The position numbers and the translations under genes are program-made. Below are positions 93 to 14,252 of a DNA stretch of 21,072 nt, one piece after another; position 1 is the stretch's first letter, and every line of letters starts with the position of its first letter. The DNA is taken from positions 1 to 21,072 of IMG/VR virus record IMGVR_UViG_2648501437_000019. One strand, 5' to 3'. This stretch comes from a virus (lineage: Duplodnaviria; Heunggongvirae; Uroviricota; Caudoviricetes). The notes below the pieces were generated by a model that saw only the letters and a list, made by a program, of their open reading frames with translations, was not told where the DNA came from and ran no database searches.

Positions 93-770
93 ATTCTACC
101 TTTCGCGCCCATTCAGGTTACTGTGCCTGGTTTTTCTTGGAAGCGTGCGATTGACAAAGAGGTGCTAAGAGTTCACATCAAGACTCTCCAGCAATTGCGT
201 GAAATTTCAGTCTCACATAGAGACATTGCTGTAATCTTAGAACACATAAACAATAATCGTGACCGCACAATTCTCGATCCATCGCATTTGGAGGACGAGA
301 TAAGTAAGACCTATAAGCTTACTAGTTTTGTGATGGGCAATTACATTGAGTTTCAGACAAAAACGGTTAGCGACAGAGCATACGGGGAAGCTAAGTTTCT
401 GGCATTTGCAGCACTTTTGTTGTTCGTGTCAGATTGGGACCTCAACATTGCTATTGGTAAGTTTTCTAAGATTGCCAGAGTGAAGGAGGTTGATGACATG
501 CTGGCTGGTAATTTCATTGGTCTTAATCCTTACTTCCGATACGACCTGGCTAATGCAGTGAAGAGATTGCAGGATAACTGGCCGATTGAATACCAAGAGT
601 TGGAGCATTGGAATGTTGAGAAATCCATGCGTGACGCATATGAAAAGTGGCGTGCGACAGAGCCTGAATTCGCTCCACCCCTATTGCCAGACTTGTATAT
701 TGCCAAACATGAGAAAGAAGTCGCACAAGACGAGCAAGTCAGGCAGTGGATTAAGAACGGGGATGTTTGA
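78..770 (+). CDS. hypothetical protein; start uncertain, possibly 5'-truncated by the IS insertion
   Basis: 693-nt ORF whose first 15 nt lie inside the IS (junction at 92/93). The listed start at 78 is TTG; first in-frame candidates after the junction are GTG at 123 and ATG at 333, neither with a convincing SD. No recognisable motifs. Confidence 0.45.
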   Translation: MLTTSILPFAPIQVTVPGFSWKRAIDKEVLRVHIKTLQQLREISVSHRDIAVILEHINNNRDRTILDPSHLEDEISKTYKLTSFVMGNYIEFQTKTVSDRAYGEAKFLAFAALLLFVSDWDLNIAIGKFSKIARVKEVDDMLAGNFIGLNPYFRYDLANAVKRLQDNWPIEYQELEHWNVEKSMRDAYEKWRATEPEFAPPLLPDLYIAKHEKEVAQDEQVRQWIKNGDV

Positions 771-899
771 GTGTAATTAGCTTAATCAATCAGTTGATAA
801 TGGCGGTCACAATTTGATTCTTTTCTATAAGAATCCGTTGATCGCCACTACTCTTCTTCCATACCTGCAATCACACCTTTAAATATCAATAGGTTAGCG

Positions 900-1660
900 T
901 TGTTTATACCAATAAGAAAACAACTAAATAACAGATCAACGAAACGTCAACGCTTTCACCCGATTTGGTCTAAAAAATTGACGTTTTCACACATCACTGC
1001 TTATACCCGTAACTCTACGCAGCAGACAGCGCCACAGAGTCCAATTTTCACCACAGACGACTCAACACACTACCAACAAAAACACACGCTCAAAATCGCT
1101 CCCGCTGCGTTACACAACCATATAAACAACATATTTTCAGGTATAACAAAACAACTAAATAACACATATGCCATTCCCCAAAACAACCAACCTCTTTATG
1201 GCAGGCTACCGAAAAGACCCACCTCTTCTCCCCAGGCTACTGGACAACCAACCTAACTTTCACAGGCAATCCGAAAACATTCATACGCGCGATACCCACG
1301 ACACGCCATTCCCCAAACAGCGAAGAAACACCAGAATCACTGAAACCCCAACGAAGCCTGTAACCGCAAGGATTCTCTCAATCCCAAAAGACTCGAAGCA
1401 TAACAATCACGGGAAACGCCATTACCCAATACACGAATAACTACAAAAGCCTTTCACACACTCCAGACAAACAACTCAAACACAATAACGAAAGGAATCG
1501 CCCACCTGCCATTACTCCATACACGGAGAAGAACAATCACCAAAACGACGAGAACACCCCATAGAAGAACCACCGCAAAACGAACGAAACCACATACACC
1601 GACAGAGAAAACAACACACCCAATTCACCAACAGAAATAGTCGCCGTATAGAACATTCTG
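900..1660. other. G-depleted, A+C-rich non-coding tract
   Basis: The plus strand is about 77% A+C and 10% G in one hand-counted 60-nt stretch (1441-1500). The only ORFs (900-1256, 1168-1440) are low-complexity P/T/Q/N/H-rich with no SD; no minus-strand ORF of 60 aa or more. Contains a 16-bp direct repeat AAACAACTAAATAACA (about 917-932 and 1148-1163). Confidence 0.6.
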
Positions 1661-1752
1661 GAAGGAGTGAGCATTAACGCCTATAGAGAGGTTGAGACAG
1701 ATAAAACACAACATGTATAGCGAAGAAGCCAGGTATGTATAAGTGGGGAGGG

Positions 1753-1777
1753 AAGGAGGGGTGTCGCCTCCTTTTTC
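1753..1777 (+). terminator. putative intrinsic terminator
   Basis: Hairpin AAGGAGG (1753-1759), loop GGTGTCG, CCTCCTT (1767-1773), running into TTTTT (1772-1776). Confidence 0.5.
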
Positions 1778-1840
1778 GTATTTATTCAACTCCTGATTTT
1801 ATCCCCCCGTAACACCCCTACGGTCAGCCTTCGGTCCATA

Positions 1841-1976
1841 CAGGGAAAAGGCTGCATCCCGCTACAGAAACGGCTGGGTTGCCTTCGGGGAACGGCTGGA
1901 GGTTTTCAGGGAAACGGTCGAGTTGCCTGTGTGGATTTCGGGAAAAGGCTCGATGCCGGTTCAGGAACGGTGGCGT
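1841..1976. repeat. iteron-like array, six degenerate direct repeats of GGRAAMGG-CTG with 21-23 bp spacing
   Basis: CAGGGAAAAGGCTGCAT 1841-1857; AGAAACGGCTGGG 1866-1878; CGGGGAACGGCTGGA 1886-1900; CAGGGAAACGGTCGA 1907-1921; CGGGAAAAGGCTCGA 1939-1953; CAGGAACGGTGGCG 1962-1975. The AACGG/AAAGG cores sit at 1847, 1868, 1891, 1913, 1945 and 1966. Confidence 0.6.
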
Positions 1977-2285
1977 ACCGGTATAGCGAGAGGGAGAGTT
2001 GCGGCTACCCACCTGTAATGTGCGGGAAGAAGAGAGGCGCTCACGTAGGCGGACTTGCTTACCGCTGGATTCCCTCTGAATGCCCAGCTACAGCGTAATT
2101 GTGCCAGACAGCCAACGGGTCACAATCGATTTCAGTAGGTTTTCGGGGAGAGGATTATTCTGCCCACCAGCCACCTTCGGCCACTAAATCAGAATAATGT
2201 AAAAAGTATACTCGGTACTGAACCTGAAAACTCACTGCCAAAACCATATTCACCGGAATAAAATCCTTTTTCGCCTGTGCGTTAT

Positions 2286-2294
2286 TGCGATAAT
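2286..2294 (+). promoter_or_regulatory. candidate extended -10 promoter element (TGcGATAAT) upstream of the 2333 gene
   Basis: TGCGATAAT lies about 38 nt upstream of the ATG at 2333; no good -35. Sequence pattern only. Confidence 0.3.
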
Positions 2295-2332
2295 AACACC
2301 ATCAAGAAAACATGTTGTTTAAGGATTGCTTT

Positions 2333-2662
2333 ATGTTTGCAAATATCGACATCAACCAAATCAAGAAATTAACTCAAAAAGAGTTTGATCAGTTTTATGA
2401 GTTAGAAGGTTGGTCTTCCACTCTGATCAATTCAAGATGGGTGCTGGAACTGATGACTCGTGATGACGCACCTGCTTTGATAATTTGCGACATGGGTGAA
2501 GATGCTGACTTTATGGATATGAGCGAATTTTGTGTGGACACATACAACCGCAGCCAGAAGTACTACTTCACATGCGATAGCGAAAATGACGTGATTTCTA
2601 AGGTCTATCTTCACCTCGTCCAGCATTGGGACGTTCAGGAGTTTCTTGAAGTATTCGAGTAA
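2333..2662 (+). CDS. small acidic hypothetical protein (109 aa)
   Basis: ATG at 2333 preceded by AAGGAT SD; the upstream ATG at 2312 has no SD. About 22 D+E against about 8 K+R. Followed by a hairpin. Confidence 0.6.
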   Translation: MFANIDINQIKKLTQKEFDQFYELEGWSSTLINSRWVLELMTRDDAPALIICDMGEDADFMDMSEFCVDTYNRSQKYYFTCDSENDVISKVYLHLVQHWDVQEFLEVFE

Positions 2663-2671
2663 CCCCAACCA

Positions 2672-2698
2672 AAGCCAGCAATGCTGGCTTAATTTCTC
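2672..2698 (+). terminator. putative intrinsic terminator
   Basis: AAGCCAGC (2672-2679), loop AAT, GCTGGCTT (2683-2690), then AATTTCTC. Confidence 0.45.
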
Positions 2699-2815
2699 TA
2701 TAGCCGCAGGGAAGAACCTGCATATCGCTCATGCACCTGATCAATATGCTTTGTAGCCGTTTTCTTACTGGTATTATTTACGCCATTGAGAAAACAAGTT
2801 GTTTACGGAGTTGTA

Positions 2816-3127
2816 ATGAAAAAATCATTGGTTCTTGGTCTGGACAAAGACCAGAAGAGAAAAGAGAAGCCTGCGCTGGTTGCTCAATTAACTTTGCTGG
2901 ACATCGTTGCCAATGGAACCTCTATTCGTCTGTTCCGTGAAACAGCGGTGTCTTTCGATAAAAACACCTTTACTCGTTATGTAATGAATGTTCGTCGCCA
3001 GCGTGGAAAAGGCTGGGTGGCATTTCAAAGAATGTGGCCGGAACATCAGCTCGAACTGGCTTTGATGGAAGTTAACCGCGTGGCCCAGCAAGAGATTCAG
3101 AGAGCATCAGTGATGGCAATAGCCTGA
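2816..3127 (+). CDS. hypothetical protein (103 aa)
   Basis: ATG at 2816 with ACGGAG SD 5 nt upstream (the listed ORF starts at TTG 2786). Terminator immediately downstream. Confidence 0.6.
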   Translation: MKKSLVLGLDKDQKRKEKPALVAQLTLLDIVANGTSIRLFRETAVSFDKNTFTRYVMNVRRQRGKGWVAFQRMWPEHQLELALMEVNRVAQQEIQRASVMAIA

Positions 3128-3161
3128 TAATGTGCAAGTGGCAATTAGTCGACAGTACGAC

Positions 3162-3190
3162 AGCCCCGCCATCCTTACGGGGCTTTTTTG
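3162..3190 (+). terminator. intrinsic terminator
   Basis: AGCCCCG (3162-3168), 9-nt loop, CGGGGCT (3178-3184), followed by TTTTTT. Confidence 0.7.
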
Positions 3191-3253
3191 TATTGTAAGT
3201 ACATACTTACGATCATAGAATATAAAAATAACCAATACACTACGGAGAGTGAA

Positions 3254-3649
3254 ATGACCGTTAAACGCGAAAAACTGACAGTTGATGTTTACTATGCCTC
3301 TGAAACCGCCGAAGGTAAGAATGTGGCAAAAATCACCGTTGTTACGTACAACACCGAAACTGGTGCCGAAGTCCAGGCCAGTACGATCGTGCGTAAAGGT
3401 GATGCCTCCGGCGGCGAGTACGCGACTCAATACCAGTCCATTCTCGATGCAACTGACCCGCTGCTGCTGAAAATCGAGAACTACTTCCGCCAGGTTGATG
3501 AAGAGGTGTTTGAAACCATGATGAATATGGTTAACACCGTATTCGCCTCCAGCCTGAATACCAACACTACCTGGATTGGTCAGTACGGCCTGCGCATTAC
3601 CTCTGGCATTCCTGCCGACACCTTAATCCCTGAAAGCGTATTCGCTTAA
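3254..3649 (+). CDS. hypothetical protein (131 aa)
   Basis: ATG at 3254 with GGAGAG SD at 3244-3249; the listed ORF start at 3188 lies in the upstream terminator region. Confidence 0.65.
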   Translation: MTVKREKLTVDVYYASETAEGKNVAKITVVTYNTETGAEVQASTIVRKGDASGGEYATQYQSILDATDPLLLKIENYFRQVDEEVFETMMNMVNTVFASSLNTNTTWIGQYGLRITSGIPADTLIPESVFA

Positions 3650-3657
3650 TCCTCTTT

Positions 3658-3686
3658 AAATGGCGCGTAAACCGCGCCATTTTATT
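3658..3686 (+). terminator. intrinsic terminator
   Basis: AAATGGCGCG (3658-3667), loop TAAAC, CGCGCCATTT (3673-3682), then TTTTATT. Confidence 0.7.
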
Positions 3687-3766
3687 AAGCCCGATAACAA
3701 TTTGTTTTCTGCCTTATCTGATTTGTGAAAATGATTTCACTGAAGCAACTTAATAAGGAAACCATC

Positions 3767-4141
3767 ATGGGACTTGATATCTATATCGAGACACAGCCTA
3801 AAAACGATCTGAATAACGAGGCATCCAGAAAGCAGGTTGCTTACTTCCGTAAGTTCAATGCGCTCGTTGGGTGGATGGAGCGCAACGTAGGTGAAGTCGA
3901 AAATTGTGAGCTTTTAGAATTAACGATGAATGACATTTGTTTTCTGAAGGCTCATTTGATGCACATAAACGAAAGTAATTGCGAAGAGTACTTGCCTACC
4001 CGGGAAGGTTTTTTCTTCGGCAGTCAGGAGTACGATGAAGGTTACTGGCATGATGTGGGGCAGTTGAAAGAGCTTGTGGAAGATCTGATTAAGAACCACG
4101 ACTTTCACAATAACAGACTGACCTTCTGCGCCTGGTGGTAA
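3767..4141 (+). CDS. hypothetical protein (124 aa), acidic
   Basis: ATG at 3767 with AAGGA SD at 3755-3759 (the listed ORF starts at GTG 3725). Confidence 0.6.
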   Translation: MGLDIYIETQPKNDLNNEASRKQVAYFRKFNALVGWMERNVGEVENCELLELTMNDICFLKAHLMHINESNCEEYLPTREGFFFGSQEYDEGYWHDVGQLKELVEDLIKNHDFHNNRLTFCAWW

Positions 4142-4143
4142 AT

Positions 4144-4287
4144 ATGGGCGATTTCAAGAAACGCCTGAAGGAAAGAGCCGAGATGGTCAGAAAGCAAAAC
4201 GCCTCTTCTGTCATCAGATACGCAAGGCAGTTTAGTCGCAACAACAAATCAGTTGAGGAAAAGATCCTTAGCGTAATCGTGCGATAA
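4144..4287 (+). CDS. candidate small basic protein (47 aa), not in the ORF track
   Basis: ATG at 4144, 2 nt after the stop of the 3767-4141 gene, so tightly coupled. Translation MGDFKKRLKERAEMVRKQNASSVIRYARQFSRNNKSVEEKILSVIVR, stop TAA 4285-4287, followed by a hairpin (4291-4318). Confidence 0.35.
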   Translation: MGDFKKRLKERAEMVRKQNASSVIRYARQFSRNNKSVEEKILSVIVR

Positions 4288-4491
4288 TTATTAAGGCCAT
4301 CAGCATTGGTGGCCTTAAATGACCATCTTGTTTCCCGCAGGCTAAAAACACCAACCTCTTACCTCCAGGCAACCGACAAACCCACCTGTTCCCGTCCGGC
4401 TACCGCAACTTTCCACTTTGACGCCTTATTCGTACAACGATAATTAACACCAACAAGAAAACAATTTGTTATTTACGATAAGGAATTAATC

Positions 4492-4974
4492 ATGAATTTT
4501 ATCGCTACTGTAAACGCACCCGCACATGGCAATATCGCTGTAACGTTCTCTGACATTGAAAAACGAGTACTTGGTGCATGGCGCGACAATGAGACGGTAG
4601 AACTGTCAGCACAAGAAAAATGCATTATTGCACGCGACATCATTGGCAATCGTCGTTACTCGCGGGTATTTGAGAAAGCGTATGTGGTAAATTCTGGATT
4701 CGGAACGTTCGTCTTTCCGGTGCGCTCCGGGCGATTCTGCCAGTCCAAGCTGATTGAGTTCGCTACGCAGATTTCTGTCTGGATTAAAACTCAATCGTCG
4801 TTCAAATTTTCCGACGATGAAGCAGTATCGCAGGGGATGCGGATCGCCAACAATGCAATTAAATGCAAAAACATTACGTATACCGCTGGCGTTGATACAT
4901 GGAAACTGTTTTGCGCTAACTTTATGCTGAATGTATACGCAAGCAACCGCATCCACATCCTTGATGGCGTGTAA
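4492..4974 (+). CDS. hypothetical protein (160 aa)
   Basis: ATG at 4492 with AAGGAATTAATC-ATG SD; followed by a hairpin. Confidence 0.65.
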   Translation: MNFIATVNAPAHGNIAVTFSDIEKRVLGAWRDNETVELSAQEKCIIARDIIGNRRYSRVFEKAYVVNSGFGTFVFPVRSGRFCQSKLIEFATQISVWIKTQSSFKFSDDEAVSQGMRIANNAIKCKNITYTAGVDTWKLFCANFMLNVYASNRIHILDGV

Positions 4975-4982
4975 CTGAGAAG

Positions 4983-5008
4983 AGGGCCAGAAACGGCCCT
5001 TTCTCTAT
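4983..5008 (+). terminator. putative intrinsic terminator
   Basis: AGGGCC (4983-4988), loop AGAAAC, GGCCCT (4995-5000), then TTCTCTAT. The 13-mer TTTCTCTATAGCC after it also follows the 2672-2690 hairpin (2693-2705). Confidence 0.5.
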
Positions 5009-5023
5009 AGCCACCAGCTGCCG

Positions 5024-5105
5024 CAGGGAAATTTTCAGAAGCGGCGAGGAACGTATTCATGAGCCGACGGGGAACGGCCAGGATTTTTTCGGGAAACGGC
5101 TGCAT
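5024..5105. repeat. second iteron-like array, same repeat family as 1841-1976
   Basis: CAGGGAAATTTT 5024-5035; CGAGGAACGTATT 5045-5057; CGGGGAACGGCCA 5068-5080; CGGGAAACGGCTGCAT 5090-5105. Cores about 21-24 bp apart. Confidence 0.55.
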
Positions 5106-5230
5106 TTGCCTTTGTGTAGAAAAAAACATCGGGAAGCTGGTGGAATCCAACCAGCGGTTGTCGGACAGGTGAGCGGGGAAAATTATGATGACTTTCGTCA
5201 CCTGAGACATCCAGATTTCTTTCGTAGCAT

Positions 5231-5273
5231 AATCACATACGTGATTAAGTGGTGTGATTATGTGAAAAATCAC
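5231..5273. promoter_or_regulatory. operator-like cluster of AATCAC/GTGATT half-sites
   Basis: AATCAC-ATAC-GTGATT palindrome at 5231-5246; further half-sites GTGATT at 5254-5259 and AATCAC at 5268-5273. Confidence 0.4.
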
Positions 5274-5504
5274 GCGCACATAATACGCGAGCGGATACGG
5301 AACAAAACAAAATGCCGATCCGCGCCGACAAATAAACGCGGATCATAAAGCAAGACTAAAAGCCAATGATTAACTATGCGCTATAACGCGTTTTAAGCGC
5401 GTTAATGTGTTAAGTAATGGGTATGTACTGGCAAGGATATAAAAGCGCGTCTATGGCGTTATTTTGGCGCTTATTTTTATGTTGTTGGAGTGAGTTAAAG
5501 ACAA

Positions 5505-5530
5505 TAAAAAACGCGCCATCAATGGCGCGT
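5505..5530 (-). terminator. intrinsic terminator, minus strand
   Basis: GC-rich palindrome ACGCGCCAT/ATGGCGCGT (5511-5530) preceded on the plus strand by AAAAAA, which is a U-run after the hairpin on the minus strand. Confidence 0.55.
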
Positions 5531-5551
5531 TATTGTGGAAGTATTGGAAAC

Positions 5552-5576
5552 GAAAAAAGCGCCCATAGTGGGCGCT
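5552..5576 (-). terminator. intrinsic terminator, minus strand (possibly bidirectional)
   Basis: AGCGCCCA-TAG-TGGGCGCT (5558-5576), flanked by AAAAAA on the plus-strand 5' side and CGATTTTATTTG on the 3' side. Lies just downstream of the stop at 5582 on the minus strand. Confidence 0.6.
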
Positions 5577-5581
5577 CGATT

Positions 5582-5812
5582 TTATTTGTGTAAACTGATT
5601 TTAAATCCCATTTCTACGAACGCTTTTAACATTAAAAATATATCAGCGTCGTTCACGTCTGCTTTTTTTCGCTCCTGGTCGCTCAATAAGTCAATTTTGC
5701 GCGTCGTTTCATCTATAAGCTCGACTACGCGCCCAGCGTAACCAGCGATCCCAGCGATGCGATTAACATAATATTCATTATGGACGTTAACGCCAGCGAT
5801 AAGAACAAACAT
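5582..5812 (-). CDS. small hypothetical protein (76 aa)
   Basis: ATG at 5812 preceded on the minus strand by AAGGAG 8 nt upstream; terminator downstream. Confidence 0.55.
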   Translation of the reverse strand: MFVLIAGVNVHNEYYVNRIAGIAGYAGRVVELIDETTRKIDLLSDQERKKADVNDADIFLMLKAFVEMGFKISLHK

Positions 5813-6036: not shown

Positions 6037-6054
6037 TTTTCAAAGCTCCTTTAA

Positions 6055-6073
6055 AGCGCCCATAGTGGGCGCT
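6055..6073. repeat. second exact copy of the 19-bp palindrome AGCGCCCATAGTGGGCGCT
   Basis: Identical to 5558-5576; with flanks about 25 bp match with one mismatch. Confidence 0.55.
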
Positions 6074-6085
6074 TGATTCCATTAA

Positions 6086-6736
6086 TTACGCTTTGAAAGC
6101 ATCAGCTAAATAATTGTAGAAATCATTTTTAATGAAGCGATATTGCTGAGTACCAGCTTTTGCACTCCCAGCTCCTTTGACTTTTTCAACAAGTCCAAGA
6201 CGTTCGCAAAGATTGATCAACTGGTTGGCTTGAGTATAGCCAGCGTCCAATTTAATTTCACACGCTTTTTTAGCTTCATTCATTAAATCGAAAACAGCGC
6301 CATTGGTGAACGTGTCGATCTCGTCGTTAATCATATCGATTAAAGCGAATACACGAGATCCTGACATATCAGCGACGGAATAAACACATTTACCAGCTTT
6401 AATGGATTTAACCAGATAAACCAGTTTTTCCAGTGAATAACTATTAGTCATTGCATCACGGAAAAATACTTCTGGCGCTTGTTTGCTTGCTTTAATCGCA
6501 TAGTAGAAAACAGAGCATAATTTTTCGTCTTCTACTGCGTTTACGACGTTGTTGATGAAGTAAGCAAGTTTAGTGGTCGCAGCTTGCATATTTGCTTTGT
6601 CTGCTTTAGTGTGCGTACCATTTTTATAATGTTCGTTATATGTTTGAGTTGCCAGATCTGCTTTTTCGCGCAGCTCGTCGGATACAATAGATGCAGCTTC
6701 AATGATGGACTTTTTAGAAATGATAATGTTAGCCAT
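6086..6736 (-). CDS. hypothetical protein (216 aa)
   Basis: ATG at 6736 (MANIIISKK...) with AAGGA SD 7 nt upstream on the minus strand; the listed ORF start at 6811 lacks an SD. Confidence 0.65.
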   Translation of the reverse strand: MANIIISKKSIIEAASIVSDELREKADLATQTYNEHYKNGTHTKADKANMQAATTKLAYFINNVVNAVEDEKLCSVFYYAIKASKQAPEVFFRDAMTNSYSLEKLVYLVKSIKAGKCVYSVADMSGSRVFALIDMINDEIDTFTNGAVFDLMNEAKKACEIKLDAGYTQANQLINLCERLGLVEKVKGAGSAKAGTQQYRFIKNDFYNYLADAFKA

Positions 6737-7029: not shown

Positions 7030-7554
7030 TTAAAATGGAAGGATTCGTTCAACCCAATCGAAGAAAACAAGTATTTTTCTGCCGTCTTCTAACTTAAGAG
7101 TGACCTGGCAAGCATCAACGCCTCTTGACACCCCTTCAATTTCACGACCGTCTGCCATGTAGACCCTTATAGATTGGTCGTTTTGATAAGCCTTGCGACA
7201 TATCGCAAAAAAGTCACGGCGTGATGGCTGATTGTCAACATAGTCTGGATGTATTGTTAGCCTACCTTTGAACTCGCGAGCAATGCCATCGATTACACCT
7301 GATTCAATTGTGCTAATGCGCTCAAGTGGGAGTCTTATACGATTTTCTTTATCATATGGAAGCGGGCATAAATCTAGCTTATTGCGGGAAGGCATTGTCC
7401 CCTGAACGTACATGCAAAACACCTGACCGTCTTCAAGCGTGACTCTTACAGGAATGTTGTTCTTCCGCCAGAACATAAGTATGTTTTCAGCATGTTCGTA
7501 GTCTCGCGGCCAGACTTCAGCCGGTATGCCGTAGGTGATGTCCGATGTTCTCAT
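7030..7554 (-). CDS. hypothetical cytoplasmic protein (174 aa)
   Basis: The start ATG overlaps the upstream stop (ATGA at 7551-7554), so it is translationally coupled. Confidence 0.6.
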   Translation of the reverse strand: MRTSDITYGIPAEVWPRDYEHAENILMFWRKNNIPVRVTLEDGQVFCMYVQGTMPSRNKLDLCPLPYDKENRIRLPLERISTIESGVIDGIAREFKGRLTIHPDYVDNQPSRRDFFAICRKAYQNDQSIRVYMADGREIEGVSRGVDACQVTLKLEDGRKILVFFDWVERILPF

Positions 7555-11272: not shown

Positions 11273-11354
11273 AAACCTCTTTCCTTAGTGCCTTTTGTAT
11301 GTTATTTGGCTATTATAATAAGTAAGTGATTACTTAGTGGATTGTAGCAATAAA
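11273..11354. promoter_or_regulatory. divergent promoter region between the helicase and the late plus-strand operon
   Basis: 82-bp spacer with TATAAT at 11314-11319 and the palindrome AAGTAA-GTGA-TTACTT at 11321-11336. Confidence 0.4.
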
Positions 11355-12035
11355 ATGGATGTAAAAATCACGATTTTGCAGGTTGATGTTGCCAACCTTC
11401 GCCCGAATACCTGGAACACCAATTCGGTTGGTGCGCAGAATTTTGAAAAACTGAAAGGTTCTATCGAAAAATTGGGCTTTTTTAAGCCAATTTTGGCTCG
11501 TGAACTTGAAGATGGATTTTTTGAAATCCTCGGCGGCGAACATCGCTGGCGTGCCGCTATTGAGCAAGGAATTTCAACGGTTCCGGTGCTTTCTGTGGGC
11601 AAAATTAGCGATGTCGTAGCTAAACAGATGTCACTGGTGGACAACGAGCGATACGGTGAAGACGACCAAATCGCATTGCAACGCTTCATTGAAGAAATTC
11701 AGTCAGAACTTGACTATCAACTGTCTGAAATCGCCCCGTATGACGACGAAATCTCGATGGTTTTAGCAAAAGAGGCGGCAATCGACCTTGAAGCACTGGA
11801 GGCGTTGTCTCGTGGTAGTGATGAGCCTGTCGATACCGACAAACGAGAGAAAACCGAACGTGTGGGTGCGGAACATCAGACCATGCGCTTCAAAGTAACT
11901 TTCGATGCGTCAGATCGTGTTGCAGAAACCATAAAAAACATCATCAAAGAGCAGGCTATTAACACCGGTAATGAAATGGAGAACGCTGGTGAGGCTCTGG
12001 TGTGGCTGGTCGACTACTACAAGGAGCGTATGTAA
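11355..12035 (+). CDS. ParB/Srx-like nuclease-domain protein 1
   Basis: ParB/Srx signature ILGGEHRWRAAIEQGISTVPV; acidic C-terminal half. Start taken as ATG 11355 (the listed ORF starts at GTG 11337). Confidence 0.7.
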   Translation: MDVKITILQVDVANLRPNTWNTNSVGAQNFEKLKGSIEKLGFFKPILARELEDGFFEILGGEHRWRAAIEQGISTVPVLSVGKISDVVAKQMSLVDNERYGEDDQIALQRFIEEIQSELDYQLSEIAPYDDEISMVLAKEAAIDLEALEALSRGSDEPVDTDKREKTERVGAEHQTMRFKVTFDASDRVAETIKNIIKEQAINTGNEMENAGEALVWLVDYYKERM

Positions 12036-12703
12036 TGACCAAAAAGTTTGAAATCGTATATCGCGACCCGGCAGATCTTATTCCCTATGAGATGAATGCC
12101 AAAAAGCATGATGAACAGCAGATCCGAGATCTGGCCGCAGCCATTAAAAAGCGCGGATTTGACCAGCCAATTACGGTCGATAAGAACGACGTAATTATTA
12201 CTGGCCACGGCCGCCGTGAGGCTGCAATTTTTGCTGGACTTGAGCGCGTACCGGTTATTGTTCGCGATGATCTCAGTGATGACGAGGTTCGTGCGAAGCG
12301 CCTTGAAGATAACCGACTTGCCAGCATTGATTACGATGCAATTAAGCTACAGAAAGAGCTTGAGTCGCTTGTTCTGGACGATATCGAGGTTTTCGGCTTT
12401 GAAGAGCGTGAGTTGAATGTTCTCGTTGGCAGTATGACAGAAGAAATGGACACCGACTCGCTAGTTATCGATCTTGGCGAAGAAACTAAACGACAGAAGG
12501 ATGAACACACCGAGATCAGTCGTGAAGTTGCAGCGGAAGAAGTACGTGTTGTCGACGTATTGGGCTTTAAAACGCTCCCTGCTGGCTCTGCCATTGTTGT
12601 TGGTGATTTGCTTGCCCACATGGAAGAAATGACGGGAGAAAGCGGGGTAGACGCATTTGTGGCATATGCGGAGAAGATCTCTTCTGGGGAGATGGCTGCA
12701 TGA
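12035..12703 (+). CDS. ParB/Srx-like nuclease-domain protein 2
   Basis: Signature ITGHGRREAAIFAGLERVPV; ATG overlaps the upstream stop (TAATG) with AAGGAG SD at 12021-12026. Confidence 0.7.
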   Translation: MTKKFEIVYRDPADLIPYEMNAKKHDEQQIRDLAAAIKKRGFDQPITVDKNDVIITGHGRREAAIFAGLERVPVIVRDDLSDDEVRAKRLEDNRLASIDYDAIKLQKELESLVLDDIEVFGFEERELNVLVGSMTEEMDTDSLVIDLGEETKRQKDEHTEISREVAAEEVRVVDVLGFKTLPAGSAIVVGDLLAHMEEMTGESGVDAFVAYAEKISSGEMAA

Positions 12704-13365
12704 GCAAATACATCATCAACGTATCGTTTCAGACACGCGTAAATAAAACCACGCGCACGTTGGAAATCGCTGAGTCGTTCGGGCTTGGCCTGGACGAAAA
12801 AGAGTGGACGCTTTACGACAATCTGGAGCTGGAAGTGAAGCAGGGCGATGTGGTGTATATCACCGGCCAATCCGGTTCCGGCAAATCCGTTGTGCTGCGC
12901 GAGTTGCAACGACAGATGAAGGATGAAGGGCTGTCTGTAGCCTCCATCGATGATTTTACCTTCGATAATGAGGTTAACGTCATCGATCAGTTGGGCAAAA
13001 CGACCAGCGATGCGCTTGGGTTGTTATCTATGGCTGGTCTGAACGATGCATATCTGTTTGTTCGCAAGCCTTCTGAAATGTCAGACGGTCAGAAATATCG
13101 TCTCAAGATTGCCAAACTGATTGAGTCAGGCGCTAAAGTGTGGGCTGCTGACGAGTTCGGTGCTGTTCTAGACCGTGTAACCGCTCAGGTTGTGGCATCT
13201 AACCTCCAGCGTGCCGCTCGAAAGGTTGGTGCGACGGTAATGGTGGCGACGACTCACGAAGACCTGAAGAACGCGCTGCGCCCGGATATGCAGATCACCA
13301 AGCACTACAAAGAACGCGTGAAGGTGGAATATCACAATGGTAGTCATGATGAGGTCCATTCATGA
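12700..13365 (+). CDS. ABC-type ATPase (nucleotide-binding domain only, 221 aa)
   Basis: Walker A GQSGSGKS, signature-like SDGQKYRL, Walker B VWAADEFGAVLD, H-loop TTHE; ATGA overlap with the upstream gene. Confidence 0.7.
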   Translation: MSKYIINVSFQTRVNKTTRTLEIAESFGLGLDEKEWTLYDNLELEVKQGDVVYITGQSGSGKSVVLRELQRQMKDEGLSVASIDDFTFDNEVNVIDQLGKTTSDALGLLSMAGLNDAYLFVRKPSEMSDGQKYRLKIAKLIESGAKVWAADEFGAVLDRVTAQVVASNLQRAARKVGATVMVATTHEDLKNALRPDMQITKHYKERVKVEYHNGSHDEVHS

Positions 13366-14252
13366 CGGACATCATCATCAAACGCTACCGCCCTGAAGAG
13401 TTTCCGCGTCATCTGGACTTTCTGGAGCGAATGACTGTCACAAAGGGAACTGTAGAGGACTGGCACGCTCTTAAGTCGCTTCACTACAAAACAGACGGCA
13501 AACCTTTCGCGCCAACATACTATCGCTGCGAACTGGATGACCGTCTGGTGGGCGTCGTGGTTATGGCTTACCCGAAACTACTGTTGGCACCTCGCCACCG
13601 CATGTTTCCTAAGTTGAAACCAACCACTAATACCACCGTGGCTAACCAGTACTGGGGTCGGTACGTGAATAACAACTTTGCGGTGATCAGTCGCTCAGTT
13701 GTGGATACTCAGTATCGTGGCGTAGGCGTCTCTTATCGAATGATTAACCTGGTTAGCAGGATGCATGACCGGCCAATCATTGAGATCCAGTCCTCGATGA
13801 GCAAATACAATCCCTTCGCCATGAAAGCAGGGTTTAAGTTCATCCGCCCTGAGCGACCGAAGAGCTATGAAAGTGCACTGCGTGTGTTCCAGCGCCATTT
13901 CCGCTCCGACCCGGGTGATAACGAGGCGATCGTCAAAGAGTTGTTCGCTATGAGCGAGTCTCGTCGTCGCCGTGCGCTGCGCGATTTGGTGGCGGACTAC
14001 CATAAGAACAGTTCCCTGGCAAAAGCTGGGCGGAATCGTGGCACGACGATTCAGGACATTGCCGACAGTCTGGTGGACGAGGCCAGCATTGTGAAGCTGC
14101 TCAAGGACATTCACAACCTGAGCTTTACGTCTCCGTTGTATGGTGTGTACCGAAACCCTGACTTTGGCCGTCGACTGCCTGACACGCTGCCACTGCTGGC
14201 ATTCGACAAACAACCTTTGGATAAACCGTTAGAAATTGCTTTACCGGCATAA
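13362..14252 (+). CDS. GNAT-fold (acyl-CoA N-acyltransferase-like) domain protein (296 aa)
   Basis: GNAT motif A-like VISRSVVDTQYRGVGVSYRMINLV then NPFAMKAGFKF; ATGA overlap with the ABC ATPase gene. Confidence 0.5.
   Translation: MTDIIIKRYRPEEFPRHLDFLERMTVTKGTVEDWHALKSLHYKTDGKPFAPTYYRCELDDRLVGVVVMAYPKLLLAPRHRMFPKLKPTTNTTVANQYWGRYVNNNFAVISRSVVDTQYRGVGVSYRMINLVSRMHDRPIIEIQSSMSKYNPFAMKAGFKFIRPERPKSYESALRVFQRHFRSDPGDNEAIVKELFAMSESRRRRALRDLVADYHKNSSLAKAGRNRGTTIQDIADSLVDEASIVKLLKDIHNLSFTSPLYGVYRNPDFGRRLPDTLPLLAFDKQPLDKPLEIALPA

What the first reader, a model, noticed from the sequence alone, without database searches (positions are those of the whole stretch)
5000..5105. Second iteron array plus a terminator-linked 13-mer shared with the 2693 region
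Four or five repeats of the same GGRAAMGG family occur at about 21-24 bp spacing. Immediately before them the exact 13-mer TTTCTCTATAGCC (5000-5012) follows a terminator hairpin, and the identical 13-mer follows the 2672-2690 hairpin at 2693-2705, there followed by the single copy CAGGGAAGAACCTGCAT (2707-2723). The recurring terminator, 13-mer, GCAGGGAA arrangement looks like a reused regulatory cassette.
Basis: seen in the sequence. Interest (0 to 1): 0.5.

Follow-up and report, generated by a model that had tools for sequence, protein, structure and literature searches.

The report
Conserved iteron-like repeat array, phage-plasmid
The repeats are real: they form one of two matching, evenly spaced arrays of a short DNA motif kept in every relative of this SSU5/pHCM2/pMT1-type phage-plasmid, most likely a docking platform for a still unidentified DNA-binding protein, while the shared 13-mer is only a terminator tail copied recently in the E. 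coli branch.

Summary
TTTCTCTATAGCC occurs exactly at 2693 and 5000, each time after a hairpin. GGRAAMGG units lie at 5026, 5037, 5047, 5070, 5092 and 5131.

The window is an SSU5/pHCM2/pMT1-type phage-plasmid. Array 2 and array 1 (1843-1970) are unit-by-unit paralogues. They are the only two such clusters in a 109-kb relative and bracket a variable block of small genes.

Array 2 lies in a 600-bp gene-free gap between terminators. It is conserved in E. coli, Klebsiella, Enterobacter, Salmonella and Yersinia pestis plasmids. The unit cores are conserved, the spacers diverge without indels, and the 22-bp period is kept.

I found no conserved RNA structure, no Rfam match and no conserved promoter. 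The plasmid's own Rep gene lies 30 kb away and has unrelated iterons. Most lineages flank array 2 with inward-facing Chi sites.

The 13-mer is the terminator's U-tract plus six bases specific to the E. coli lineage. The 2693 copy is a duplication confined to that lineage.

My best reading is a cis-acting protein-binding DNA array that works with array 1 in replication or maintenance. A neighbouring winged-helix protein is a candidate binder. The function is inferred, not shown.

The parts
4984..5006 (+). Terminator-like hairpin (GGGCC-AGAAAC-GGCCC) plus U-tract TTTCTCT, ending the 160-aa gene 4492-4974
   Evidence: Read. The hairpin is kept in all lineages with different stem sequences: GGGGC..GCCCC, GGGCCG..CGGCTC, GGGAGA..TCTCCC. 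RNAalifold predicts it as the only well-supported helix.
5000..5012 (+). 13-mer TTTCTCTATAGCC: U-tract plus six bases specific to the E. coli lineage
   Evidence: Exact copy at 2693. Other lineages have TTTCTTTyCGTCC or TTTCTTTGCC here.
5011..5018 (-). Chi octamer (CCACCAGC on the + strand), active for RecBCD moving rightward into the array
   Evidence: Present at this position in 48 of 62 unique -300..+500 segments, about six of which are array-1 cross-matches, so about 56 are array 2.
5021..5033 (+). Unit A (CCGCAGGGAAATT); CCGCAGGGAA is nearly invariant across the family
5037..5054 (+). Units B (AGAAGCGG; AGAAACGG in relatives) and C (AGGAACGT), both degenerate
5066..5082 (+). Unit D (ACGGGGAACGGCCAGG; GGGAAACGG in relatives)
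5086..5104 (+). Unit E (TTTTCGGGAAACGGCTGCA), the best-conserved unit, 22 bp after unit D
5105..5119 (+). Spacer box TTTGCCTTTGTGTAG, homologous to TTGCCTGTGTG inside array 1
   Evidence: conserved as TTTGCCTTTATGTAG
5130..5143 (+). Unit F (CGGGAAGCT) overlapping a + strand Chi octamer GCTGGTGG (5136-5143), active for RecBCD moving leftward into the array
   Evidence: A downstream Chi is present in 53 of the same 62 segments (about 56 are array 2), at +49, +70 or +94 depending on lineage.
1843..1970 (+). Array 1, the paralogous array: six units spaced 22, 22, 22, 31 and 22 bp
   Evidence: The spacing is kept in the Salmonella, Klebsiella and other lineages.
1750..1776 (+). Terminator preceding array 1
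2672..2723 (+). Short copy of the junction: hairpin, 13-mer and one solo unit (GCAGGGAAGAACCTGCAT); E. coli lineage only
4975..5581 (.). A 607-bp gene-free gap between convergent genes. It holds array 2 at its left end and several hairpin/terminator-like elements to the right
   Evidence: No feature is annotated here in any relative. Terminators on both strands are listed. Indels that are not multiples of three rule out coding.
6086..6736 (-). Candidate binder (inference only): a conserved 216-aa protein with a long helical hairpin and a C-terminal winged-helix-like domain

Best explanation
Array 2 is a cis-acting DNA element. It is a helically phased row of 14-16-bp direct repeats with the consensus (T)TTYsGGRAAMGGCYGG and a period of 22 bp. 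Several copies of one sequence-specific DNA-binding protein, encoded by the phage-plasmid family, probably bind along one face of the helix. Array 2 is the partner of the paralogous array 1, 3.2 kb upstream.

I think the pair most likely forms a two-part nucleoprotein complex that serves replication or maintenance. That could be a second, phage-mode origin or a pairing or copy-control site. The logic would resemble the separated ori/crr sites of phage P4 or oriR/incA of P1. The pair is independent of the plasmid's own Rep and iteron origin.

Terminators on both sides keep transcription out of array 2. In most lineages, inward-facing Chi sites would stop RecBCD before it degrades the array.

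What is shown: the repeats, their phasing, their conservation, the paralogy of the two arrays, the terminators, the Chi sites, and the absence of conserved RNA structure or a conserved promoter. What is inferred: protein binding, the identity of the binder (best guess the 216-aa winged-helix protein at 6086-6736) and the replication or maintenance role.

The 13-mer has no function of its own. It is the terminator's U-tract plus six lineage-specific bases. Its second copy at 2693, with one solo unit, is a recent duplication of the terminator-array junction in the E. coli lineage.
For: - Only two clusters of the motif exist in a complete 109-kb relative. Both are on the same strand and correspond to arrays 1 and 2.
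- The two arrays align unit by unit, including an internal TTGCCTnTGTG spacer box.
- Array 2 is conserved across E. coli, Klebsiella, Enterobacter, Salmonella pHCM2 and Y. pestis pMT1, with conserved unit cores and variable spacers. It persists in the most divergent relative found.
- The 22-bp spacing is preserved while spacer sequences diverge, with no small indels. One phage has lost roughly one unit length.
- Unit positions are coherent with a 10.5-11-bp period.
- Information content is concentrated in about 14 bp, GGGAAACGGCTGG.
- There is no excess RNA folding on the + strand, with z-scores of +0.43 and -0.11. The RNAalifold covariation term is -0.47, and predicted pairs inside the array do not vary. 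Rfam gives no match.
- Terminator-like hairpins lie on both sides of the gap.
- Chi sites flank the array in the protecting orientation. The downstream Chi sits at three different positions in different lineages.
- A conserved winged-helix-like protein is encoded 1 kb away.
Against: - No DnaA boxes, IHF site, GATC cluster or AT-rich unwinding region lie next to either array.
- GC skew shows no switch at the arrays.
- The DnaB-like helicase and the primase lie about 45 kb away.
- Spacing from unit A to unit B varies by 2-3 bp between lineages, and the most divergent relative has spacings of 12, 24 and 34 bp.
- Chi is enriched across the whole genome, 21 sites against about 2.7 expected. The flanking Chi sites are absent in pMT1 and in the most divergent relative.
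- Y. pestis pMT1 keeps array 2 but has lost array 1, so the pair is not indispensable for plasmid life.
Confidence: 0.4

Rival explanations
1. Transcriptional silencer or insulator. A regulator binds both arrays and loops or insulates the intervening block of small early or accessory genes. This would resemble the lambda OL-OR looping logic and keep the block off in lysogeny or time its expression.
For: The arrays bracket a variable block of 1.5-3.3 kb. Each small gene in it has its own sigma70-like promoter, palindromic operator and terminator. Two-turn spacing of sites and two arrays a few kb apart resemble operator clusters. A winged-helix protein and an FljA-type regulator are encoded nearby.
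Against: No promoter overlaps either array. Nothing annotated lies downstream of array 2 on the + strand. The genes already carry a different, highly enriched operator-like palindrome.
Confidence: 0.2
2. RNA-level element. Read-through transcripts carry the repeats as binding sites or a decoy for an RNA-binding protein, for example the neighbouring FljA homologue.
For: All units lie on the same strand as the upstream genes. An FljA homologue (PF03614, E 5e-81, with a weak Hfq-like tail) is encoded at 7030-7554. FljA is known, from my own knowledge, to bind the fliC mRNA leader. Window 5060-5071 shares an exact 12-mer, TGAGCCGACGGG, with the E. coli K-12 fliC leader, with an empirical p of about 0.007 for a match of at least 11 nt.
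Against: Both arrays sit directly after terminators. There is no structure signal or covariation and no Rfam match. The strict 22-bp period and unit-length indels fit DNA geometry better. The fliC match is confined to the E. coli lineage, and Salmonella-lineage arrays do not resemble the Salmonella leader. After correcting for the roughly 20 comparisons made, the match is marginal.
Confidence: 0.1
3. One reading: a reused terminator, 13-mer and GCAGGGAA regulatory cassette that starts transcripts just downstream of the 13-mer.
For: The arrangement of hairpin, 13-mer and GCAGGGAA does occur twice. The window reuses other regulatory modules, such as an identical 21-nt terminator at 5556 and 6053 and a repeated promoter/operator family.
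Against: The 13-mer is not conserved outside the E. coli lineage, whereas the array is. The short copy is lineage-specific. No consensus promoter was found at or after the 13-mer.
Confidence: 0.07
4. Packaging recognition site: a pac or cosB-like array bound by the small terminase subunit.
For: Arrays of short direct repeats are typical of terminase recognition sites. From memory, the lambda cosB R sites contain GGAAACG, the core of this unit. A protein in a PHROG family described only as 'DNA binding domain', which I take to be a putative small terminase, precedes the large terminase gene.
Against: The arrays lie 10 kb from the terminase genes. The Chi sites face the wrong way to protect ends made by a cut between them. 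There are two arrays instead of one. The non-phage plasmid pMT1 retains array 2.
Confidence: 0.07
5. Functionless repeat DNA that hitch-hikes in a conserved intergenic region.
For: No function has been demonstrated.
Against: Unit cores are conserved much more strongly than spacers. Spacing is preserved across genera. Two paralogous arrays are kept in nearly all lineages.
Confidence: 0.04

Closest known systems
Iteron arrays of theta-replicating plasmids and plasmid prophages (P1 oriR/incA, F incB/incC, R6K, RK2)
   Same: Several direct repeats with a roughly 14-17-bp informative core on a 22-bp (two-turn) period. There are two arrays a few kb apart in direct orientation. Indels come in whole units.
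   Different: There is no adjacent rep gene. The family's own Rep has unrelated iterons 30 kb away. The arrays do not co-vary with replicon type. No DnaA boxes or AT-rich region lie nearby. Binding has not been shown.
Bipartite phage origins with separated repeat clusters (P4 ori/crr bound by alpha; SPP1 oriL/oriR bound by G38P), recalled from my own knowledge
   Same: Two clusters of the same short repeat lie kilobases apart and would be recognised by one phage-encoded protein.
   Different: No initiator has been identified here. Origin activity is untested. The replicative helicase and primase genes are distant.
Repeat-type plasmid centromeres (R1 parC, pB171 parC1/parC2, tubC of TubZRC systems)
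   Different: No partition NTPase operon adjoins the arrays. The phage-plasmid has separate ParA-like genes elsewhere. The fold similarity is generic.
Promoter/stem-loop gene cassettes of hyperplastic phage regions (T4-type PeSL modules), recalled from my own knowledge
   Same: The small genes between the arrays each carry their own promoter, operator-like palindrome and terminator. Terminator and junction sequences are duplicated, which fits module shuffling.
   Different: That describes the surrounding gene block and the 2693 copy, not the conserved array itself.

Membership tests
Plasmid iterons (Rep-binding origin or copy-control repeats) | Multiple direct repeats of about 17-22 bp spaced in phase with the DNA helix | tested here: met
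   Array 1 spacings are 22, 22, 22, 31 and 22 bp. Array 2 spacings are 11, 10, 23 and 22 bp. Positions are coherent with a 10.5-11-bp period.
Plasmid iterons (Rep-binding origin or copy-control repeats) | Located in or next to the origin beside the cognate rep gene | tested here: not met
   The RepB-family initiator lies at 104.9-106.1 kb of the closest relative, about 30 kb from the arrays, and is flanked by its own repeats, ACCGCTGACAGCATAC.
Plasmid iterons (Rep-binding origin or copy-control repeats) | Repeat sequence co-varies with the Rep or replicon type | tested here: not met
   The same arrays occur in rep_cluster_488 and IncFIB plasmids.
Plasmid iterons (Rep-binding origin or copy-control repeats) | Adjacent AT-rich unwinding element and DnaA or IHF sites | tested here: not met
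   No exact DnaA box (only three 1-mismatch matches) or IHF consensus was found. Only two GATC sites occur. Only two 40-nt windows reach 70% AT, one in each scanned region and neither next to the repeat units.
Plasmid iterons (Rep-binding origin or copy-control repeats) | Bound by the initiator; exerts incompatibility or supports replication | not testable with these tools
   Needs EMSA or footprinting, incompatibility tests and origin-cloning tests.
Rho-independent terminator (the hairpin before the 13-mer) | GC-rich hairpin followed by a U-tract, kept by compensatory change | tested here: met
   The hairpin at 4984-4999 is followed by TTTCTCT. The stem sequences differ between lineages but still pair.
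Sigma70 promoter downstream of the 13-mer | Conserved -35 and -10 hexamers with 16-18-bp spacing | tested here: not met
   The scan found none at 5000-5100 or 2693-2745. The TATAG of the 13-mer is absent in other lineages.
Known structured or sponge RNAs (Rfam families, CsrB/Rsm type) | Match to a covariance model, or conserved structure with covariation | tested here: not met
   No Rfam hit was found. Folding z-scores are +0.43 and -0.11. The covariation term is -0.47. Unit B, CAGAAACGG, lacks the GGA motif.
Repeat-type centromere (parC/tubC) | Adjacent partition NTPase and adaptor operon | tested here: not met
   The neighbours are small genes of unknown function, an FljA homologue and a helicase. 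The ParB_N proteins start 6 kb away, and the ParA-like gene is about 41 kb away in the closest relative.
Chi sites | Exact 5'-GCTGGTGG-3' in a defined orientation | tested here: met
   5011-5018 on the - strand and 5136-5143 on the + strand. Both are conserved in most lineages. Activity with RecBCD was not tested.

The most novel reading that the evidence does not exclude
The two arrays form a previously unrecognised bipartite cis element of the whole SSU5/pHCM2/pMT1 family. They would act as a phage-mode origin or recombination-primed replication start, guarded by inward-facing Chi sites and served by an orphan winged-helix protein, separate from the plasmid Rep origin. This would explain how these phage-plasmids switch replication mode.
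Probability: 0.15. Interest if true: 0.7.

Novelty: new member of a known kind. Interest (0 to 1): 0.45.

Why it matters
SSU5-type phage-plasmids are common in clinical Enterobacteriaceae and include S. Typhi pHCM2 and much of Y. pestis pMT1. Apart from the Rep and Par genes, their cis-acting maintenance and replication sites are essentially unmapped. I found no description of these arrays in the searchable literature.

A pair of strongly conserved, protein-sized binding arrays gives a concrete target for experiments. The questions it opens are how these elements control copy number, how they switch to lytic replication, and how they hold a variable accessory-gene block.

If the arrays prove to be only regulator sites, the finding is useful annotation but not surprising.

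Tried and rejected
- **Known RNA family.** An Rfam gathering search of the whole window and a permissive search of 700-5700 found nothing at the arrays.
- **Structured RNA.** Single-sequence folds and RNAalifold on 12 lineages gave no signal beyond the terminator.
- **Iterons of the plasmid Rep.** Rejected. Rep lies 30 kb away with different repeats.
- **Classical origin features.** DnaA boxes, IHF sites, GATC clusters and AT-rich stretches are absent. GC skew is uniformly positive and uninformative.
- **The 216-aa protein.** It has no Pfam, NCBIfam or PDB sequence hits. Only 23 representatives exist among 1.84 billion proteins. Distant members could not be located in viral contigs, so I could not run a test of co-variation between protein and motif.
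- **Whole-plasmid Chi orientation as an origin marker.** 16 of 21 sites fit an origin at array 2. An equally good boundary exists elsewhere, and gene orientation confounds the test.
- **Coding potential of the array.** Excluded by 1-3-nt indels between lineages.
- **Mimicry of the flagellin leader.** A 12-mer is shared with the E. coli fliC leader, but there is no counterpart in the Salmonella lineages. I keep it only as a lead.
- **Literature.** The LF82/Cyrano paper (PMC9928086) gives expression data for genes only. One possibly relevant 2026 preprint could not be opened.

Full report
**What the window is.** The region around the finding is 99.7% identical to E. coli plasmid pGMI17-003_2. 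It is 97-98% identical to Escherichia phages CMS-2020a, PhiR41_1 and Cyrano. These are about 110-kb, non-mobilisable phage-plasmids of the SSU5/pHCM2 type. The window runs from a block of small genes of unknown function, through a helicase and ParB_N genes, to terminase, portal and capsid genes.

**Check of the observation.** TTTCTCTATAGCC is exact at 2693-2705 and 5000-5012 and nowhere else. Both copies follow a hairpin, at 2672-2690 and 4984-4999. Both are followed by GCAGGGAA, directly at 2706 and after a 10-nt insert at 5023.
- GGRAAMGG occurs 7 times against 2.2 expected.
- In array 2 the units start at 5026, 5037, 5047, 5070, 5092 and 5131.
- A 13-mer pair alone is weak evidence, because the window has 14 such exact repeats against 3.8 expected. 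The shared context makes homology likely.

**Anatomy.** A complete 109-kb relative has only two clusters of the motif. They correspond to array 1 (window 1843-1970) and array 2, and both are on the + strand.
- The arrays align unit by unit: four units on a 22-bp period, a TTGCCTnTGTG spacer box, then two more units. They are therefore paralogues.
- Each follows a terminator-like hairpin. The hairpin is kept in other lineages with different stem sequences.
- Pooling 37 units from five lineages gives the consensus (T)TTYsGGRAAMGGCYGG, with information concentrated in about 14 bp.
- Array 2 opens a 607-bp gap between convergent genes. No relative has an annotated feature there. The gap holds further terminator-like hairpins on both strands.

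**Conservation.** The gap matches 779 plasmid records from Klebsiella, Escherichia, Enterobacter, Yersinia (pMT1), Salmonella (pHCM2), Citrobacter and Cronobacter.
- Alignments of independent BLAST-derived relatives show conserved blocks exactly at the units and variable spacers. 55 unique viral-contig copies agree. Those copies were selected by a pattern that fixes units D and E.
- Array 1 keeps its 22, 22, 22, 31, 22 spacing in the E. coli and Salmonella lineages, and its four core units keep the 22-bp period in every lineage examined, although the spacers have diverged. There are no small indels. PhiR41_1 has lost roughly one unit length.
- The most divergent relative (53% identity in a neighbouring protein) keeps the synteny, both arrays and the GRAAACGG core.
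- The distance between the arrays varies from 1.5 to 3.3 kb with different small genes in between.
- pMT1 has array 2 but not array 1.

**The 13-mer.** Outside the E. coli lineage, the bases after the array-2 terminator read TTTCTTTyCGTCC or TTTCTTTGCC. Only TTTCT.T, the U-tract, is conserved. The short form TTTCTCTATAGCC+GCAGGGAA, 2.1-3.5 kb upstream of array 2, occurs only in the lineage that also has this 13-mer at array 2. It is therefore a recent duplication of the terminator-array junction that left one solo unit. No promoter consensus follows either copy.

**DNA or RNA?**
- No Rfam family matches.
- The + strand of either array folds no better than shuffled sequence, with z-scores of +0.43 and -0.11.
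- RNAalifold on 12 lineages recovers only the terminator, with a covariation term of -0.47.
- Indels exclude coding.
- The strict two-turn period, unit-length indels and position behind terminators all favour a DNA-level protein-binding array.

**Whose sites?** They are not the plasmid Rep's. Rep lies about 30 kb away and is flanked by many ACCGCTGACAGCATAC repeats. The arrays are the same in IncFIB and rep_cluster_488 plasmids.
- Classical origin features are absent, and GC skew is uninformative.
- The 160-aa protein next to array 2 has no recognisable fold relatives.

**Chi sites.** Array 2 is bracketed by CCACCAGC (5011-5018) and GCTGGTGG (5136-5143). Each is oriented to be recognised by RecBCD travelling toward the array.
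- I compared 62 unique -300..+500 segments. About six of them are array-1 cross-matches, so about 56 are array 2. Of the 62, 48 have the upstream site and 53 have a downstream one. The downstream site sits at +49, +70 or +94 depending on lineage, and GCTGGTGG is never found upstream in the wrong orientation.
- Chi is enriched genome-wide. The flanking sites are missing in pMT1 and in the most divergent relative.
- I therefore treat this as supporting context, not proof.

**Verdict.** The array is real, conserved and almost certainly functional as a protein-binding DNA element paired with array 1. I favour a replication or maintenance role (bipartite origin, pairing or copy control) at about 0.4. 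A looping silencer or insulator for the enclosed gene block comes next at about 0.2. The 'regulatory cassette' is a lineage-specific duplication. I found no published description of these arrays.

Noticed in passing
window 940-1700 (+ strand): An ~800-nt non-coding stretch that is rich in C and A and poor in G (0.10-0.15) and T. It ends at the terminator just before array 1. The same composition is kept upstream of array 1 in Salmonella, Klebsiella and K. quasipneumoniae relatives, and in the last of these a ~200-nt purine-rich run follows it. Its function is unknown.
   Followed up: partly
window 1180-1276 and 4317-4409: Tandem repeats of about 30 nt (AAACAACCAACCTCTT....CAGGCTA), three copies in the C/A-rich region and three to four copies upstream of gene 4492.
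   Followed up: no
window 1124, 2306, 2790, 3693, 4457, 7063, 9685, 14644, 14669: The palindrome GAAAACAAnTTGTTT gives 14 matches at about nine sites, against 0.65 expected. It sits between a sigma70-like promoter (repeat family D3) and the ribosome-binding site of each small + strand gene, and occurs twice before the packaging operon. It is probably the operator of a family-wide regulator. Its core, CAAGTTG, also lies just 5' of the ribosome-binding site in the Salmonella fliC leader.
   Followed up: partly
window 7030-7554 (-): A full-length homologue of FljA, the repressor of phase-1 flagellin (PF03614, E 5e-81), with a weak Hfq-like C-terminal match. It is conserved in all relatives, including pMT1 and pHCM2.
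   Followed up: partly
window 5060-5071: An exact 12-mer, TGAGCCGACGGG, shared with the 5' leader of E. coli K-12 fliC. The empirical chance of a match of at least 11 nt is about 0.007 before multiple-test correction. It is present only in the E. coli lineage of the array.
   Followed up: partly
whole window; relative NZ_CP031136.1: Chi octamers are strongly over-represented: 6 in the window against 0.33 expected, and 21 in the 109-kb relative against about 2.7. Five of the 21 lie within 3.5 kb around the two arrays.
   Followed up: partly
window 5556-5576 and 6053-6073: An identical 21-nt bidirectional terminator, AAAGCGCCCATAGTGGGCGCT, is reused after two different - strand genes.
   Followed up: no
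window 5200-5580: The rest of the gap is packed with conserved GC-rich hairpins that have T-runs on both strands. It gives weak, sub-threshold Rfam matches to Hfq-binding small RNAs such as Hrs1, isrK and rseX. Small RNA genes are possible here.
   Followed up: no
L002 (phage PhiR41_1) 3090-3140: Array 1 of this phage lacks one ~22-bp unit relative to the window, consistent with whole-unit slippage in a tandem array.
   Followed up: yes
window 11337-14252: Two ParB_N-domain proteins, an ABC/SMC-like ATPase and a conserved 296-aa protein form a block just upstream of the terminase genes. Their role is unknown.
   Followed up: no
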